Below, one piece after another: positions 17,169 through 20,116 of a DNA stretch of 64,000 nt (the first letter of the stretch is position 1; the number at the start of each line of letters is the position of its first letter). A model generated the notes under the pieces. It did no database searches, was not told the origin of the DNA, and was given only the letters and a program-made list of their open reading frames with translations. The stretch covers positions 7,159 through 71,158 of the forward strand of contig CAKPKQ010000001.1 of the NCBI GenBank assembly GCA_934167305.1, given 5' to 3'. This stretch comes from an uncultured Clostridia bacterium (lineage in GTDB: Bacteria; Bacillota; Clostridia; TANB77; CAG-508). The translations under genes and the position numbers were made by a program.

Positions 17169-19115
17169 ATGAAGACTAAATATAATAATGATGCTATAAT
17201 TGGCGGTAAGAGTATTACCGCCAGTTACACAAAAAATGGGGAATTACTAAGAGTAATGTACCCATTTCCTGACTTTAGAAGTTGGATAGATGAATTTAAA
17301 ACAGGGGTAAAAATAAATGATTCAGGAATAATATATTTGCATGATGATATAAACAATCAATATAATCAATATTATACTGAAGATACAAATATATTAAATA
17401 CAGAAATACTAAATACATATTTTAATTTAAAAATAAAACAAACAGATTTTGCATTATTAAAAAACAGTGTGCTTGTAAAGAAATATGAATTTGAAAATAA
17501 AAATAATATAGAATTAAATGTTAATTTCTTAATTCATTCTAAACTTTTAACAGATTATAATAATATGGTAAGTGGAGAAGTTAAAGATAATACATTGATT
17601 CAATATTGCCATGACTACACAATGTATACTTTTTCAAACATGCCATTTTTAAGCAATCAAATAAATAACACAAAGGAAAGTATATCAAGTGGAATTATAG
17701 CAGATAAAGATTATATAGGAATGTCATGTGATTCTAGTATAAGCTATGATGTTGGATGTTTAAAACCAAATGAGAAAAAAGAATTAACTATATTTTTATA
17801 TTTCAAACATAATGGTGAAACAACAGAAGAGGGCCTAAATAAAGAATTAGCAGAAATAAAGAAATTAGATGTAAAAAAAGAAGAGCAATCAGTAGAAAAA
17901 TATTGGAAAAAATATGTTAAAGATCATTTAGGAATAGAATTAAAAAAAGAACCCAACGGAATGGAAAAAAAGTTTAATCAAATATATAAAAGAAGTATAT
18001 TACTATTCCCATTACTGATAAATCAAGAAACAGGTGGAATATCTGCTGCGGTAGAAATAGACGAAGAAATGACTAAATGTGGAAGATACAGTTATTGCTG
18101 GCCAAGAGATGCAGTATTTATTACAAGAGCATTAGATAGTTTAAAAATGACTAAAGAAACAGAAAAATTCTATAAAGTATTTTGTAAAGAAACACAAAGC
18201 AAAAATGGAATGTGGGAGCAAAGATTTTATACAGACAAAAGATTAGCACCATGTTGGGGATATCAAATAGATGAAACAGCAAGTGTTGTATTTGGAGTTT
18301 ATGAGCATTACAAAGTTACAAAAGACTTAAAATTTCTAAAAGATACATATAAAATGTGTGAAAAAGCAGTCAAATTTTTATGTACGTACATGGATAATAT
18401 CTTAGGAATAAAAGATAAATCAGATGTTGTAAAAAATGAAATTGAAGAAACATATCATACTGAAAATAGAAACAAACTTCCTGAAAGTTATGACTTGTGG
18501 GAAGAAAGTGAAGGAACACATTTATATTCTTTAGCATGCATTTATTCAGCATTTAATGCAATAACAGAAATTAATGCTATATTAAGACCCGAATACGAAC
18601 AAAACAATCGACTAAAAGTAGAGGCAATGAACAAATTAGAAAATGCTACTAAAAAGTATAATCAAGAAATAAAAAAATATATTTCAAATAATTTATACAA
18701 TGAAAAAACAAAGACTTTCACAAGAAATTTAAAAGACGAAAAAACAGATATAAGCTTATTAGGAGTTGTAACACCATTTGATATATTCTCGCCAAAAGAG
18801 AAAAAGGTATTAAACACAATCGAAAAAATAAACATGACATTAAGAACACACACAGGTGGCTATTTAAGATATGAAGACGATAACTATTGTGAAGGCAAAA
18901 ATCCATGGACAATTGCAACACTTTGGATGGCAATGTACTATCAAAAAGCAAACGAAAAACAAAAAGCAAAAGAATGTCTAAATTTTATAATAGAATCAGC
19001 AAACGAACACGGATTTATAGCAGAGCAAGTAAATAATCAAACACTAACACCAGCATGGGTAAACGGCCTAGCATGGGCTCACGCAATGTTTGTCAGTTTG
19101 GGGACGTATCTATAA
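17169..19115 (+). CDS. glycoside hydrolase family 15-like (glucoamylase-related six-hairpin glycosidase)
   Basis: 648 aa. Central CWPRDAVFITRAL motif resembling the GH15 catalytic region. The last 8 codons and the stop lie inside a REP unit (tttgtcagtttggggacgtatctataa). Confidence 0.5.
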   Translation: MKTKYNNDAIIGGKSITASYTKNGELLRVMYPFPDFRSWIDEFKTGVKINDSGIIYLHDDINNQYNQYYTEDTNILNTEILNTYFNLKIKQTDFALLKNSVLVKKYEFENKNNIELNVNFLIHSKLLTDYNNMVSGEVKDNTLIQYCHDYTMYTFSNMPFLSNQINNTKESISSGIIADKDYIGMSCDSSISYDVGCLKPNEKKELTIFLYFKHNGETTEEGLNKELAEIKKLDVKKEEQSVEKYWKKYVKDHLGIELKKEPNGMEKKFNQIYKRSILLFPLLINQETGGISAAVEIDEEMTKCGRYSYCWPRDAVFITRALDSLKMTKETEKFYKVFCKETQSKNGMWEQRFYTDKRLAPCWGYQIDETASVVFGVYEHYKVTKDLKFLKDTYKMCEKAVKFLCTYMDNILGIKDKSDVVKNEIEETYHTENRNKLPESYDLWEESEGTHLYSLACIYSAFNAITEINAILRPEYEQNNRLKVEAMNKLENATKKYNQEIKKYISNNLYNEKTKTFTRNLKDEKTDISLLGVVTPFDIFSPKEKKVLNTIEKINMTLRTHTGGYLRYEDDNYCEGKNPWTIATLWMAMYYQKANEKQKAKECLNFIIESANEHGFIAEQVNNQTLTPAWVNGLAWAHAMFVSLGTYL

Positions 19116-19183
19116 CTGACATTTCTGTCAGTTCGGGGACGTTTCTTCAACTGACAAAAATGTCAGTTGGGGGACAGATCTAG
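19088..19183 (+). repeat. REP-like repeat cluster (two type-1 hairpin units plus one type-2 unit), + orientation, upstream of the RAYT gene
   Basis: 19091..19121 tgtcagtttggggacgtatctataactgaca; 19126..19156 tgtcagttcggggacgtttcttcaactgaca; 19161..19181 tgtcagttgggggacagatct. Confidence 0.8.
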
Positions 19184-19271
19184 ACAAAAAAAGTTTATTT
19201 ATGTATTGTAAAAAAATGTAAAAGATGATATAGTAACAAAAAATGGGGACTGGGCACTATAAATATGTTTA

Positions 19272-20060
19272 ATGAAAGGAATGATTTTAGTGTCTAGATA
19301 TCCTAGAAAATACCAAAAAGGTTACACCAATGTTTATCATATTATACTTAGGAGTATAAACCAACAAGAGATTTTTTATGATAATTCAGATCATAAAAAA
19401 TTTATTAAATGCATACAACAAACAAAAGAAAAATATGTTTATGAGTTGTATGCTTATGTTTTGATGAATAATCATATACATATGCTAATAAATGCCAAAG
19501 ATAATAATATGTCGAAAATTATGCAATCTTTGGCAATTAGTTATGCAATGTATTTTAACAAAAAATATAACAGAATAGGACATGTGTTTTATAATAGATT
19601 TAAGAGTAAAAATATAGAAACAGAAGGTTATTTATTAAGAACGTTACGCTACATACACTTTAATCCAGAAAAAGCTGGAATATGTGAATATTCAAAATAT
19701 AAGTGGAGTAGTTACAGTGAATATTTAAATGAGGCAACTATAGTAAATAGAGAGATAATAGATAATTTATTTGAAAGAGACATTGAAAGATTTAAAGAAT
19801 TTCACAATGAATATAAGAATACAGAAGATAGTGAAGAGGAATTTGAAGGAAATTCTACTTTGAAATTGACAGATGATATGGCAATAGAAAAAATAAAGAC
19901 ACACTTAAAAATTGACAATTTAATTGAAATACAAAATTTTAGTAATCGAAAAAGAGATGAAACAATTAGGAAAATTAACGAAATTAAAGGAATTGAGCGT
20001 AAACAATTGGCAAGAATATTAGGGCTGAATGAGAGGACGATTTATAGGGCAATAAAATAA
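19272..20060 (+). CDS. REP-associated tyrosine transposase (RAYT; IS200/IS605-type TnpA-like HUH Y1 enzyme) with a C-terminal HTH
   Basis: HUH motif in NNHIHMLI and the catalytic Tyr region YLLRTLRYIHFNP. A C-terminal helix-turn-helix (RKQLARILGLNERTIYRAIK). Flanked on both sides by inverted REP clusters, which is the classic RAYT arrangement. Confidence 0.75.
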   Translation: MKGMILVSRYPRKYQKGYTNVYHIILRSINQQEIFYDNSDHKKFIKCIQQTKEKYVYELYAYVLMNNHIHMLINAKDNNMSKIMQSLAISYAMYFNKKYNRIGHVFYNRFKSKNIETEGYLLRTLRYIHFNPEKAGICEYSKYKWSSYSEYLNEATIVNREIIDNLFERDIERFKEFHNEYKNTEDSEEEFEGNSTLKLTDDMAIEKIKTHLKIDNLIEIQNFSNRKRDETIRKINEIKGIERKQLARILGLNERTIYRAIK

Positions 20061-20116
20061 GATGTGTCCCCAGACTGACAAAAATGTCAGTTAAAGAAAC
20101 GTCCCCAAACTGACAA
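20060..20116 (-). repeat. REP-like repeat pair (type 2 plus type 1) in reverse orientation, downstream of the RAYT gene and abutting the radA RBS
   Basis: agatgtgtccccagactgacaaa is the reverse complement of the type-2 unit. tgtcagttaaagaaacgtccccaaactgaca is the reverse complement of the type-1 unit and is followed directly by aaggag-ataaa-ATG of radA. Confidence 0.8.

What the first reader, a model, noticed from the sequence alone, without database searches (positions are those of the whole stretch)
19088..20116. RAYT (REP-associated tyrosine transposase) gene bracketed by inverted REP clusters
The 262-aa ORF carries an HUH motif (NNHIHMLI) and a catalytic Tyr region (YIHFNP) typical of IS200/IS605 TnpA-like Y1 enzymes, plus a C-terminal HTH. 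Upstream there are three REP-like units in + orientation. Downstream there are two units in reverse orientation. This is the arrangement described for RAYT/REP systems, which are mostly known from proteobacteria. The REP here is a two-part unit: a 31-nt hairpin TGTCAGTTCGGGGACGTTTCTTYAACTGACA plus a 23-nt TTTGTCAGTCGGGGGACACATCT half-site.
Basis: partly seen in the sequence, partly recalled or inferred. Interest (0 to 1): 0.7.

Follow-up and report, generated by a model that had tools for sequence, protein, structure and literature searches.

The report
Clostridial REP-like repeats with their transposase
A single-copy, vertically inherited HUH tyrosine-transposase gene in a low-GC gut Clostridia genome lies between inverted copies of a short hairpin repeat that is also scattered through intergenic DNA of the same chromosome, so it is a Gram-positive counterpart of the REP/RAYT systems known mainly from proteobacteria.

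Summary
The ORF at 19272/19290..20060 is a Y1 HUH enzyme: H68 and H70, and Y127 in RYIHxNP, are invariant in 34 homologues. Its best structural match is the E. coli REP transposase 4ER8. It lies between 2.6 repeat units upstream and 1.7 inverted units downstream.

The same 56-nt doublet occurs twice more in the window. It also occurs at 34 or more extragenic clusters on 13 contigs of a metagenome assembly of the same species, so it is a dispersed family and not IS ends.

The gene is single-copy, under purifying selection (dN/dS 0.17), and sits directly upstream of radA in 10 of 11 species, down to 43% identity.

Across species the hairpin stem changes by compensatory substitutions. The flanking boxes, GGGGACGTTTCYT and GGGGACACATCT, stay conserved.

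The protein has a C-terminal HTH and the repeats carry GGGGWSAS. This places the element in the poorly studied TIRYT / "subclass 2.1" branch rather than among the canonical GTAG-REP RAYTs. The GT(C)AG tag idea is not supported.

Mobilisation of the repeats by the enzyme is inferred, not shown.

Verdict: new member of a known kind, moderate interest.

The parts
19091..19121 (+). REP unit A1 (TGTCAGTT-TGGGGACGTATCTAT-AACTGACA). It overlaps the last codons of the GH15 gene (ORF ends 19115).
19126..19156 (+). REP unit A2, containing box 1 (GGGGACGTTTCTT)
19149..19168 (+). Family-conserved short-loop hairpin (AACTGACA AAAA TGTCAGTT) between box 1 and box 2, left flank
   Evidence: a perfectly paired stem with compensatory changes in 12 flanks from 8 species
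19161..19181 (+). REP unit B (left inner end). It contains box 2, GGGGACAGATCT; GGGGACAG (19170-19177) fits GGGGWSAS.
   Evidence: motif from PMC3733652 and PMC6006769
19206..19234 (+). Candidate promoter: TTGTAA, 17 nt, TG-n-TATAGT
   Evidence: consensus match only; the region's total is not above shuffles. The sequence is conserved in L002, L005 and L007.
19244..19257 (+). 5'-UTR motif TGGGGACTGGGCAC, corresponding to TGGGGGCA conserved upstream of the orthologues
19290..20060 (+). Y1 HUH tyrosine enzyme gene (RAYT/TIRYT-like), 256 aa from GTG 19290; the longest ORF starts at ATG 19272 (262 aa). HUH at 19473-19481, Tyr at 19650-19652, C-terminal HTH-like helices at about 19998-20057.
20060..20080 (-). 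REP unit B (right inner end). Its first base is the last base of the stop codon. GTGTCCCC (20064-20071) is the reverse complement of GGGGACAC.
20085..20115 (-). REP unit A (right outer end). It ends directly against the radA Shine-Dalgarno AAGGAG (20116-20121).
11492..11547 (+). Solo A+B doublet between a terminator-like hairpin (11458-11483) and ftsK
21506..21561 (-). Solo B+A doublet between radA and disA. Its A end abuts the disA SD AGGAGG (21562-21567).

Best explanation
This is a REP/RAYT-type system of the HTH-bearing (TIRYT-like) branch, in an uncultured low-GC gut Clostridia species.

A chromosomal, single-copy Y1 HUH enzyme is inherited vertically next to radA. It sits inside one copy of the repeat architecture it is associated with: [A-A-B] gene [B-A].

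The repeat unit is box 1 (GGGGACGTTTCYT), then a 5-12-bp hairpin with a 3-5-nt loop, then box 2 (GGGGACACATCT). About 56-nt doublets of this unit occupy extragenic sites across the chromosome. They occur alone, or as convergent pairs around short unrelated spacers, and a convergent pair can fold into a hairpin of about 55 bp.

Shown here:
- the enzyme class and its catalytic residues;
- single copy (in the ~0.27 Mb read), synteny and purifying selection;
- dispersed extragenic copies in the same species;
- co-divergence of repeat and enzyme, with compensatory stem changes and conserved boxes.

Inferred by analogy with IS608 TnpA and E. coli TnpA_REP:
- the enzyme binds the hairpin in single-stranded DNA, probably on the lagging-strand template;
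- it reads the GGGGAC boxes;
- it cuts and rejoins DNA through Tyr127, possibly at the (T/C)C|T that lies 9-10 nt from the start of each box;
- this copies, moves or homogenises the doublets at a low rate;
- the C-terminal HTH adds DNA binding or autoregulation.
For: Enzyme:
- Pfam Y1_Tnp, E = 5.5e-14.
- NCBIfam REP_Tyr_transpos scores 67 bits, against 29 bits for the IS200 model.
- H68, H70 and R126-Y127-I128-H129-x-N131 are invariant in 34 homologues.
- The only PDB sequence hit is 4ER8, aligned across the HUH and Y-x3-NP motifs.
- The AlphaFold model (pLDDT 83.6) has 4er8_A as its top Foldseek hit (E = 7.9e-6), ahead of IS608 and ISDra2 TnpA.
- C-terminal hits to HTH_23 and HTH_28 in 11 of 22 members each.

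Repeats:
- 9 cores in the window against 0.09 expected.
- Assembly ERZ827512 is 99.78% identical to the window over 10.5 kb. It carries the same doublets in 34 clusters on 13 contigs, including 9 clusters on the window's own 361-kb contig outside the window.
- 42 distinct doublets were found.
- 78 of 94 units lie outside ORFs of 100 aa or more, although 87% of the DNA is in such ORFs; the other 16 only clip gene ends.
- A convergent pair folds at -54.6 kcal/mol, z = -15.7.

Association and inheritance:
- The orthologue lies immediately upstream of radA in 10 of 11 species, 65% down to 43% identity.
- Its divergence tracks that of neighbouring genes but is faster.
- dN/dS is 0.17 at dS 0.30.
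- There is only one copy in all the DNA examined.
- Relatives on plasmids and phages are few and distant.

Co-evolution:
- Every species has box 1, hairpin and box 2 on both flanks.
- Stems differ (AACTGACA, GTGACA, TTGGGA, TGGACA, TGGGGTA, TGGGACA) yet are perfectly paired in 12 of 12 flanks. Double substitutions occur at five stem positions.
- The boxes are conserved, and TCT changes to CCT in both boxes together in L002, L005 and L084.

Turnover:
- Unit-number differences between strains.
- The radA-disA doublet is present in five species, each with its own species-specific stem.

Strand asymmetry:
- The A-rich linker lies on the sense strand in 19 cases against 4.
Against: - No direct evidence of movement was found. 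Comparison of strains gave no clean filled-versus-empty site. The 35-nt unit differences could come from slippage.
- Spacers inside convergent pairs are unrelated in sequence, so the pairs are not simple deletion derivatives copied as one piece.
- The protein scores below NCBIfam's RAYT cut-off. It lacks the N-terminal Thr described for RAYTs and has NPEKAG instead of NP(L/V)(R/K)xG.
- There is no GTAG tag.
- Copy number is moderate, and the window itself holds copies only between 11.5 and 21.6 kb.
- Attribution of 12 of the 13 ERZ827512 contigs to the same organism rests on same sample, similar coverage and identical repeat consensus.
- The strand bias is partly confounded by the + strand's AT skew of +0.2.
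Confidence: 0.8

Rival explanations
1. It is an autonomous IS200/IS605-type insertion sequence, a selfish and horizontally moving element. The scattered doublets would be its MITE-like remnants or solo ends.
For: - Pfam Y1_Tnp match.
- Fold shared with IS608 and ISDra2 TnpA.
- Terminal inverted repeats bracket the gene.
Against: - There is a single copy in all the DNA examined.
- The chromosomal position next to radA is the same in 10 of 11 species down to 43% identity, and divergence is congruent with the neighbours.
- No tnpB is present.
- The ends are inverted, whereas IS200/IS605 ends are asymmetric and in the same orientation.
- The NCBIfam IS200 model scores 29 bits against a cut-off of 55.
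- Plasmid and phage relatives are almost absent.
Confidence: 0.05
2. The repeats are host cis-elements: RNA hairpins in 5' or 3' UTRs, or protein-binding or structural sites. They would spread and stay uniform by recombination or gene conversion. The Y1/HTH protein would use them only as binding or processing sites, for example in a DNA-repair or regulatory role linked to radA-disA, and would not transpose them.
For: - 9 of 42 doublets end 0-6 nt from a Shine-Dalgarno sequence followed by a start codon, against a 3.5% background.
- Linker polarity follows the sense strand, 19 against 4.
- The enzyme's linkage to radA is deeply conserved, and no terminator lies between them.
- No insertion polymorphism was seen.
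- E. coli TnpA_REP is auto-inhibited and is regarded as domesticated (PMC3479197).
Against: - Catalytic HUH and Tyr are invariant and the gene is under purifying selection, which argues for DNA cleavage chemistry.
- Species-specific homogeneity of the repeats together with enzyme divergence is what an enzyme-driven process predicts.
- No Rfam family matches the repeats.
- This rival overlaps with the main explanation (a domesticated system) rather than excluding it.
Confidence: 0.13
3. The resemblance is coincidental: low-complexity or chance inverted repeats around a degenerate transposase pseudogene.
For: - The genome is AT-rich (29% GC), which makes short repeats common.
- Many two-copy matches are chance.
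Against: - 9 cores were found against 0.09 expected.
- The ORF is intact, with dN/dS 0.17.
- The same architecture is present in 11 species.
Confidence: 0.01

Closest known systems
TIRtron / TIRYT (Di Nocera et al. 2013, PMC3733652), equated with TnpA_REP-like subclass 2.1, probably 2.1.2 (Quentin et al. 2018, PMC6006769)
   Same: - Long Y1 protein with the class-2 signature Y-x3-NP.
- Ser-containing motif after the Tyr (WSSY here).
- C-terminal HTH resembling HTH_23 and HTH_28.
- Flanking inverted repeats that carry GGGGWSAS (GGGGACAG and GGGGACAC here).
- Repeat families of moderate size, organised as dimers and clusters.
   Different: - Quentin et al. found no REP-like secondary structure near subclass 2.1 genes. 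Here a hairpin with compensatory covariation lies between two GGGGAC boxes.
- The host is a Clostridia lineage. No Clostridium or Bacillus strain appears in the supplementary files of Di Nocera et al. that are held as text.
- The deep synteny with radA has not been reported.
- Placement inside subclass 2.1 was not tested phylogenetically.
E. coli REPtron: TnpA_REP (RayT/YafM, PDB 4ER8) with REP/BIME (Ton-Hoang 2012, PMC3333891; Messing 2012, PMC3479197)
   Same: - Best structural and only sequence match in the PDB.
- Single-copy, vertically inherited gene flanked by inverted hairpin repeats that are dispersed in extragenic DNA.
- Repeats form inverted pairs separated by variable linkers (BIME-like).
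- A C|T dinucleotide lies at the conserved element end, as at the E. coli cleavage sites.
   Different: - The E. coli enzyme is 165 aa with no HTH extension.
- E. coli REPs carry an unpaired 5' GTAG. Here the unpaired conserved motif is GGGGAC, on both sides of the hairpin in direct orientation.
- Sequence identity is only about 15%.
- The score is below NCBIfam's RAYT threshold.
REPIN-RAYT systems of Pseudomonas and other proteobacteria (Bertels and Rainey 2011; Bertels et al. 2017, PMC5581495)
   Same: - Single-copy, vertically inherited RAYT.
- Repeats occur mostly as inverted doublets able to form long hairpins.
- RAYT and repeat co-diverge.
- The RAYT evolves faster than its neighbours.
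   Different: - REPINs have a conserved spacer and replicate as one unit. Here the spacers between convergent doublets are unrelated and range from 8 to about 130 nt.
- Each half is itself a direct doublet.
- Bertels 2017 notes only Group 1 RAYTs in Clostridia, with low-frequency flanking 16-mers.
IS608 / ISDra2 (IS200/IS605 family) TnpA
   Same: - HUH/Y1 fold.
- Recognition of hairpins in single-stranded DNA is the mechanistic model borrowed here.
- The beta-1 motif YH(I/V) resembles IS200-type TnpA.
   Different: - Those are multi-copy mobile ISs with asymmetric ends, often with tnpB.
- Those enzymes are dimeric and about 130-155 aa.
- Here the gene is single-copy and syntenic, with inverted ends, and has an added 110-aa C-terminal domain.

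Membership tests
Class 2 Y1 HUH enzymes (TnpA_REP-like; Quentin 2018) | HUH motif and a single catalytic Tyr in the signature Y-x3-NP | tested here: met
   H68-I-H70 and Y127-IHF-N131-P132 are invariant in 34 sequences. They align with HMHCI and YIYINP of 4ER8.
Class 2 Y1 HUH enzymes (TnpA_REP-like; Quentin 2018) | TnpA_REP-like fold | tested here: met
   Top Foldseek hit is 4er8_A, E = 7.9e-6, 151 aligned columns, TM 0.67 normalised to the target.
Canonical RAYT (Nunvar 2010; NCBIfam NF047646) | Score above the curated cut-off of the REP_Tyr_transpos equivalog model | tested here: not met
   67.1 bits against a cut-off of 80. It is still the best NCBIfam model, ahead of IS200 at 28.8 bits.
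Canonical RAYT (Nunvar 2010; NCBIfam NF047646) | NP(L/V)(R/K)xG motif after the Tyr, and a 100% conserved Thr near the N-terminus | tested here: not met
   The window protein has NPEKAG. Some homologues have NPVKAG or NPLKAG. Strand beta-1 reads YHIILR with an invariant His and no Thr (motif definition from PMC2817692).
Canonical RAYT (Nunvar 2010; NCBIfam NF047646) | [quoted passage not shown] | tested here: met
   Inverted arms of 56-59 nt, 84-86% complementary. The same arrangement is seen in the orthologous loci.
Canonical RAYT (Nunvar 2010; NCBIfam NF047646) | Flanking repeat belongs to a dispersed, extragenic, palindromic family in the same genome | tested here: met
   At least 34 clusters on 13 contigs of the conspecific assembly; 83% of units lie outside ORFs. 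Copy number is moderate, and the complete genome was not available.
Canonical RAYT (Nunvar 2010; NCBIfam NF047646) | Unpaired GTAG tetranucleotide at the 5' foot of the REP hairpin | tested here: not met
   There is no GTAG. GTCAG is inside the stem and is replaced in other species. The conserved unpaired motif is GGGGAC.
Canonical RAYT (Nunvar 2010; NCBIfam NF047646) | Single copy, vertical inheritance, low presence on plasmids (Bertels 2017) | tested here: met
   One copy in all the DNA read. Synteny holds in 10 of 11 species. Divergence is congruent with neighbours. There are 19 weak plasmid hits and 1 phage hit.
Canonical RAYT (Nunvar 2010; NCBIfam NF047646) | Cleaves and rejoins single-stranded REP DNA | not testable with these tools
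   Needs biochemistry.
TIRYT / subclass 2.1 | C-terminal extension with an HTH (Bac_DnaA_C, HTH_23 or HTH_28) | tested here: inconclusive
   - HTH_23 and HTH_28 are the commonest hits, 11 of 22 homologues each, best E = 1e-5. The window protein itself is below threshold, E = 0.0025-0.007.
- The model shows five confident helices.
- Foldseek finds nothing significant; the weak top hits are ParB and DnaA domain IV HTH domains.
TIRYT / subclass 2.1 | Flanking inverted repeats carry GGGG[AT][CG]A[CG] | tested here: met
   GGGGACAG at 19170-19177 and GGGGACAC as the reverse complement of 20064-20071. Also present in L005, L084 and L090.
TIRYT / subclass 2.1 | Conserved Ser motif downstream of the catalytic Tyr | tested here: inconclusive
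   W145-S146-S147-Y148 is invariant or nearly so. Whether it is the same motif as in Quentin 2018 could not be checked, because the figures are not held.
TIRYT / subclass 2.1 | Phylogenetic placement inside subclass 2.1 | not tested
IS200/IS605 insertion sequence | Multiple near-identical copies; asymmetric ends with hairpins in the same orientation; IS200 equivalog score | tested here: not met
   Single copy, inverted ends, 28.8 bits against a cut-off of 55.

The most novel reading that the evidence does not exclude
A whole clade of gut Clostridia keeps a domesticated HTH-bearing Y1 enzyme locked upstream of radA-disA. It would maintain a population of box-hairpin-box doublets placed with nucleotide precision at gene boundaries, often ending directly against the Shine-Dalgarno sequence and with a fixed polarity relative to the sense or lagging-template strand. 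On this reading the system serves the host, through 5'-UTR or mRNA-end structure, replication or repair-linked DNA processing. It would then be the first worked example of how the uncharacterised TIRYT / subclass 2.1 enzymes recognise their DNA: a hairpin plus two GGGGAC-N3-YC|T boxes.
Probability: 0.2. Interest if true: 0.7.

Novelty: new member of a known kind. Interest (0 to 1): 0.45.

Why it matters
REP/RAYT (REPIN) systems are the main example of long-lived, vertically inherited "resident" mobile DNA and of transposase domestication in bacteria. Almost all detailed work on them is in proteobacteria.

The HTH-bearing branch (TIRYT, subclass 2.1) was the second-largest Y1 subclass in the 2018 survey (14.9% of all strains). 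It has no known substrate, and that survey reported it as lacking REP-like hairpins.

This locus and its ten orthologous loci form a natural mutagenesis series. Stems vary with compensation, two boxes are conserved, and a CT/CCT change occurs in both boxes together. Together these predict the recognition and cleavage determinants and can be tested directly in vitro.

The result also shows that abundant gut Clostridia carry such systems. This matters for metagenome assembly, because contigs break at these repeats, and for annotation, where the genes are labelled simply "transposase".

Tried and rejected
- Strict A-unit pattern against 185,579 representative genomes: a single hit, a decayed copy in another Clostridia MAG. 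The species is evidently not among the representatives. The relaxed pattern on metagenomes solved this.
- Single-sequence search of the PDB found nothing. The profile search found only 4ER8, weakly.
- The afdb50 fold library was unavailable.
- Fold search with the C-terminal domain alone gave no significant match.
- Rfam on the window found only two tRNAs.
- Search for filled-versus-empty sites among overlapping metagenome loci:
  - the 56-nt indel between L021 and L047 is unrelated coding sequence;
  - the L013/L049 junction lies in coding DNA with microhomology, so it is a rearrangement or a chimera;
  - L019 and L064 diverge exactly at the outer end of a repeat, but mis-assembly at the repeat cannot be excluded.
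- Rejected: GT(C)AG as a GTAG-like tag. It is paired and not conserved.
- Rejected: the 31-nt hairpin with a 15-nt loop as the conserved structure. In L089 and L090 the outer arm is absent, while the short-loop hairpin is always present.
- Rejected: a link to Di Nocera's CGTC-tagged REPs (ACGTCCCC followed by an 8-bp stem and a 4-nt loop). It is only a resemblance and was not pursued.
- Rejected: a CRISPR-like array. There are no spacers.
- The promoter call at 19206-19234 is a consensus match in AT-rich DNA. The region's total is not above shuffles, and the sequence is conserved only among the closer species.

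
Full report
**1. The observation**

The window has 29% GC. Nearly all genes are on the + strand, which has GC skew about +0.2.

At 19272..20060 (+) there is a 262-aa ORF. It contains NNHIHMLI and RYIHFNP.

Upstream, three units follow one another with a 35-nt period on the + strand:
- A, 19091-19121;
- A, 19126-19156;
- a truncated unit B, 19161-19181.

Downstream, B (20060-20080) and A (20085-20115) lie on the - strand. The two flanks form a 56-59-nt inverted repeat that is 84-86% complementary.

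The core TGTCAGTTNGGGGAC, allowing up to 2 mismatches, occurs 9 times in the window against 0.09 expected from shuffles. The four matches outside the finding form two further A+B doublets, both intergenic:
- 11492-11547 (+), upstream of ftsK;
- 21506-21561 (-), between radA and disA.

Homologues, and the GTG starts of the orthologues, indicate that translation more likely begins at GTG 19290, giving 256 aa.

**2. The protein**

- Pfam gives Y1_Tnp with E = 5.5e-14, plus only sub-threshold HTH matches at the extreme C-terminus.
- NCBIfam's REP-associated tyrosine transposase model is the best hit at 67 bits. That is below its cut-off of 80 and well above the IS200 model at 29 bits.
- In an alignment of 34 homologues with 42-65% identity, the invariant residues include H68, H70, R126, Y127, I128, H129, N131, W145, S147 and Y148.
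- A profile search of the PDB finds a single sequence, E. coli TnpA_REP (4ER8). The match is weak (E = 0.67) but aligns across the HUH and Y-x3-NP motifs.
- An AlphaFold model (pLDDT 83.6) has 4er8_A as its best Foldseek match (E = 7.9e-6, 151 columns), followed by IS608 and ISDra2 TnpA.
- The C-terminal 110 residues are helical. The last 60 are modelled confidently but have no significant structural match; the weak top hits are ParB/Spo0J and DnaA domain IV HTH domains.
- Across 22 homologues the commonest Pfam hits for this tail are HTH_23 and HTH_28, 11 members each.
- The family is large: 4,209 cluster representatives at E of 1e-30 or better, and most of the 150 best hits listed are full-length proteins of about 250-270 aa. 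Where sources name these proteins at all, they call them "transposase" from uncultured Clostridia.

**3. Are the repeats a dispersed family?**

A strict pattern found only one decayed copy among GTDB representative genomes. A relaxed pattern on metagenome contigs returned 72 loci.

One of these, L017, lies on the 361-kb contig NODE-6 of ERZ827512. It is 99.78% identical to the window over 10.5 kb, so that assembly contains the same species.

- On NODE-6 alone there are 9 repeat clusters outside the window region.
- With 12 further contigs of the same sample at similar coverage (9-10.6x) the total is 34 clusters on 1.18 Mb of contigs.
- These are lower bounds, because the scan needed an exact match to the A-unit pattern.

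In the window plus these loci (about 268 kb) there are 42 distinct A+B doublets and 94 units. Of these units, 78 lie entirely outside ORFs of 100 aa or more, although 87% of this DNA is inside such ORFs. The other 16 overlap only the first or last few codons of a gene. The GH15 gene in the window is one example: its last codons come from unit A1.

**4. Anatomy of the repeat**

In this species the doublet is TGTCAGTTyGGGGACGTTTCTTyAACTGACA, then a 4-nt linker, then TGTCAGTnnGGGGACACATCT.

Doublets occur alone, or very often as convergent pairs: [A B], spacer, [B' A']. The spacers are 8 to about 130 nt long and unrelated in sequence. One such pair folds into a hairpin of about 55 bp at -54.6 kcal/mol, z = -15.7. 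The enzyme gene occupies exactly the position of such a spacer.

The two halves of a pair are not equivalent. The linker reads AAAA (or AAAG, TAAA) on the same strand in both halves, and the half with the A-rich linker usually has TGTCAC instead of TGTCAG.

Between co-directional genes the A-rich strand is the sense strand in 19 cases against 4. The + strand's AT skew of +0.2 accounts for part of this bias but not all of it.

Nine of the 42 doublets end 0-6 nt from an AGGAG or GGAGG that is followed by a start codon, against a background of 3.5%. In the window this applies to radA (20116-20121) and disA (21562-21567).

**5. Inheritance**

The orthologue lies between the GH15 gene and radA in:
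- L002 and L005 (64-65% identity);
- L082 (56%) and L084 (52%);
- L086 (45%), L089 (48%), L090 (45%) and L091 (43%).

It also lies directly upstream of radA in L092 (44%), where the upstream neighbour is different. Only the P0012 lineage has it elsewhere, between an S4-domain gene and dnaE.

- Identity of the enzyme falls in the same order as that of four neighbouring genes, but faster: 64% against 87-96% for the closest species.
- dN/dS is 0.17 at dS 0.30.
- Only one copy is seen in all the DNA read.
- Plasmid and phage collections hold almost no relatives, and the repeat pattern found a single match in the viral contigs.

This is the profile of a resident, domesticated gene, as described for RAYTs (PMC5581495). 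It is not the profile of an insertion sequence.

**6. Co-evolution of repeat and enzyme**

Every orthologous locus has the same architecture on both flanks: box 1 (GGGGACGTTTCYT), a hairpin, and box 2 (GGG(G)AC(A/C)(C/G)AT(C/G)T), with box 2 facing the gene.

The hairpin stems differ between species:
- AACTGACA/TGTCAGTT in the window, L005 and L007;
- GTGACA/TGTCAC in L084;
- TTGGGA/TCCCAA in L086;
- TGGACA/TGTCCA in L089;
- TGGGGTA/TACCCCA in L090;
- TGGGACA/TGTCCCA in L092.

Even so, the stems are perfectly paired over 5-12 bp in 12 of 12 flanks, with loops of 3-5 nt. Double (compensatory) substitutions occur at five stem positions.

The boxes are conserved down to 43% protein identity. TCT becomes CCT in both boxes together in L002, L005 and L084.

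In L089 and L090 there is no outer arm before box 1. The structure conserved across the family is therefore the short-loop hairpin between the two boxes, not the 31-nt hairpin with GGGGAC in its loop. For the same reason GTCAG is not a GTAG-like tag.

The radA-disA spacer carries a doublet in the window, L002, L005, L082 and L084, each with its own species' stem. Unit number also differs between strains: a 35-nt unit at the left flank in L058 against the window, and two units in L003 against L004. Together these indicate continuing turnover or homogenisation.

**7. How it most likely works**

By homology with IS608 TnpA and E. coli TnpA_REP, the enzyme should bind the hairpin in single-stranded DNA. 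It should recognise the adjacent unpaired GGGGAC boxes, and cut and rejoin DNA through Tyr127 with the HUH-bound metal. The E. coli enzyme binds, cleaves and recombines single-stranded REP/BIME DNA at C|T dinucleotides (PMC3333891). It is a monomer and auto-inhibited (PMC3479197).

Both boxes have the form GGGGAC-N3-(T/C)CT, and the conserved element ends at ...ATCT. I therefore propose cleavage at that C|T; this is speculation.

The strand polarity fits a single-strand, replication-coupled process but does not prove one. The HTH may bind the GGGGWSAS box in duplex DNA. It may also bind the TGGGGGCA motif that is conserved in the 5' UTR of the gene in at least eight species, which would give autoregulation.

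None of these steps is shown here. No clean filled-versus-empty site could be found.

**8. Comparison with what is known**

Quentin et al. 2018 (PMC6006769) define class 2 Y1 enzymes by Y-x3-NP. Their subclass 2.1 consists of long proteins with a Ser motif after the Tyr and a C-terminal HTH (Bac_DnaA_C, HTH_23 or HTH_28). They state that no REP-like sequences were found near these genes. They equate the subclass with the TIRYTs of Di Nocera et al. 2013 (PMC3733652).

In that earlier paper, TIRYT genes are flanked by terminal inverted repeats sharing GGGGWSAS. In a few species, such as S. maltophilia and K. versatilis, these repeats form moderately abundant families organised as dimers and clusters.

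The present element fits this description: GGGGACAG and GGGGACAC, HTH_23/HTH_28-like tail, WSSY, moderate copy number.

It fails several features of canonical RAYTs: no GTAG tag, no N-terminal Thr, NPEKAG instead of NP(L/V)(R/K)xG, and a score below the NCBIfam cut-off.

Only those two papers in the searchable library mention TIRYT. Neither mentions Firmicutes. Di Nocera et al. does not mention Clostridia at all, in the main text or in the supplementary files held as text. Quentin et al. names Clostridia only for subclass 1.1. Bertels 2017 notes only that Group 1 RAYTs, with low-frequency flanking 16-mers, occur in Clostridia.

**9. Verdict**

More precisely, it is a new member of the TIRYT / subclass 2.1 kind.

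The new points are:
- a clear hairpin with covariation between two conserved boxes;
- a dispersed extragenic family in a gut Clostridia species;
- deep linkage to radA.

It is a solid and useful example, not a new kind of system. Interest 0.45. Confidence is 0.8 that it is such a system, and about 0.6 that the enzyme still mobilises or homogenises the repeats.

Noticed in passing
window 20127-20210 and 20149-21489 (radA): radA has a one-base insertion inside its N-terminal zinc finger. Frame 0 reads [27 protein letters not shown] and then a stop; the rest of the protein ([11 protein letters not shown]...) continues in the +1 frame.

The same 'CCA CGG N TGT' is present in three independent assemblies of this species (window, L017, L058) and in two other species (L002/L004, L005). 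More distant relatives have an intact CPAC or CPGC (L082, L084, L086).

Reading +1 at the rare CGG codon would give CPGC, as in L086. This may be a programmed +1 frameshift, or a conserved split gene.
   Followed up: partly
window 19244-19257; L002, L005, L007, L082, L084, L086, L089-L091 upstream of the orthologue: A G-rich motif, consensus TGGGGGCA (GGGGACTGGGCAC in the window), is conserved 25-45 nt upstream of the start codon of the enzyme gene in nine species. Candidate operator or inner-end site.
   Followed up: partly
window 20116-20121 and 21562-21567; 7 further loci of ERZ827512: The outer (A) end of 9 of 42 doublets abuts a Shine-Dalgarno sequence (0-6 nt away) followed by a start codon. 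The hairpin would then sit at the very 5' edge of the ribosome-binding site of the downstream gene.
   Followed up: partly
window 19088-19115: The last nine codons and the stop of the GH15 (glucoamylase-like) gene are supplied by repeat unit A1 (...FVSLGTYL*). The same happens in L005 with its own repeat variant.
   Followed up: no
L019:3384 vs L064:629: Two samples share an identical convergent repeat pair, but their sequences diverge completely from the last bases of the outer A unit onward. This is either a rearrangement by recombination between dispersed repeats or an assembly chimera at the repeat.
   Followed up: partly
L013:558/6073 vs L049:1620-1630: L049 joins two segments of L013 that lie 5.5 kb apart, in a way that implies an inversion. 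The junction lies in coding DNA with about 10 nt of microhomology, not at the repeats. Real inversion or chimera.
   Followed up: no
L086:5948-6040, 7821-7913, 16532-16624: A different 93-nt intergenic repeat (three copies, 85-90% identical) occurs in the species carrying P0107. That locus also has a bAvd gene (PF22296), which hints at a diversity-generating retroelement.
   Followed up: no
Protein database contigs of P0001 and P0004-P0011: Many family members are known only from contigs of about 0.9-1.3 kb, roughly the length of the gene. This is what is expected if short-k-mer assemblies break at the flanking repeats. It is weak evidence, because such contigs are short anyway.
   Followed up: no
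window 11458-11483: A terminator-like hairpin (GGTCAGAC...GTCTGACC followed by AATTTT) lies directly upstream of the solo doublet at 11492.
   Followed up: no
L007:9482-9530 and 10807-10855: In the P0012 lineage the enzyme gene lies at another locus (S4-domain gene, enzyme gene, dnaE). Its repeat is A plus an inverted half-unit (TGTCAGTTTGGGGAC...GTCCCTTAACTGACA), and the repeats bracket the S4 gene together with the enzyme gene. This indicates at least one relocation and a different repeat architecture.
   Followed up: partly
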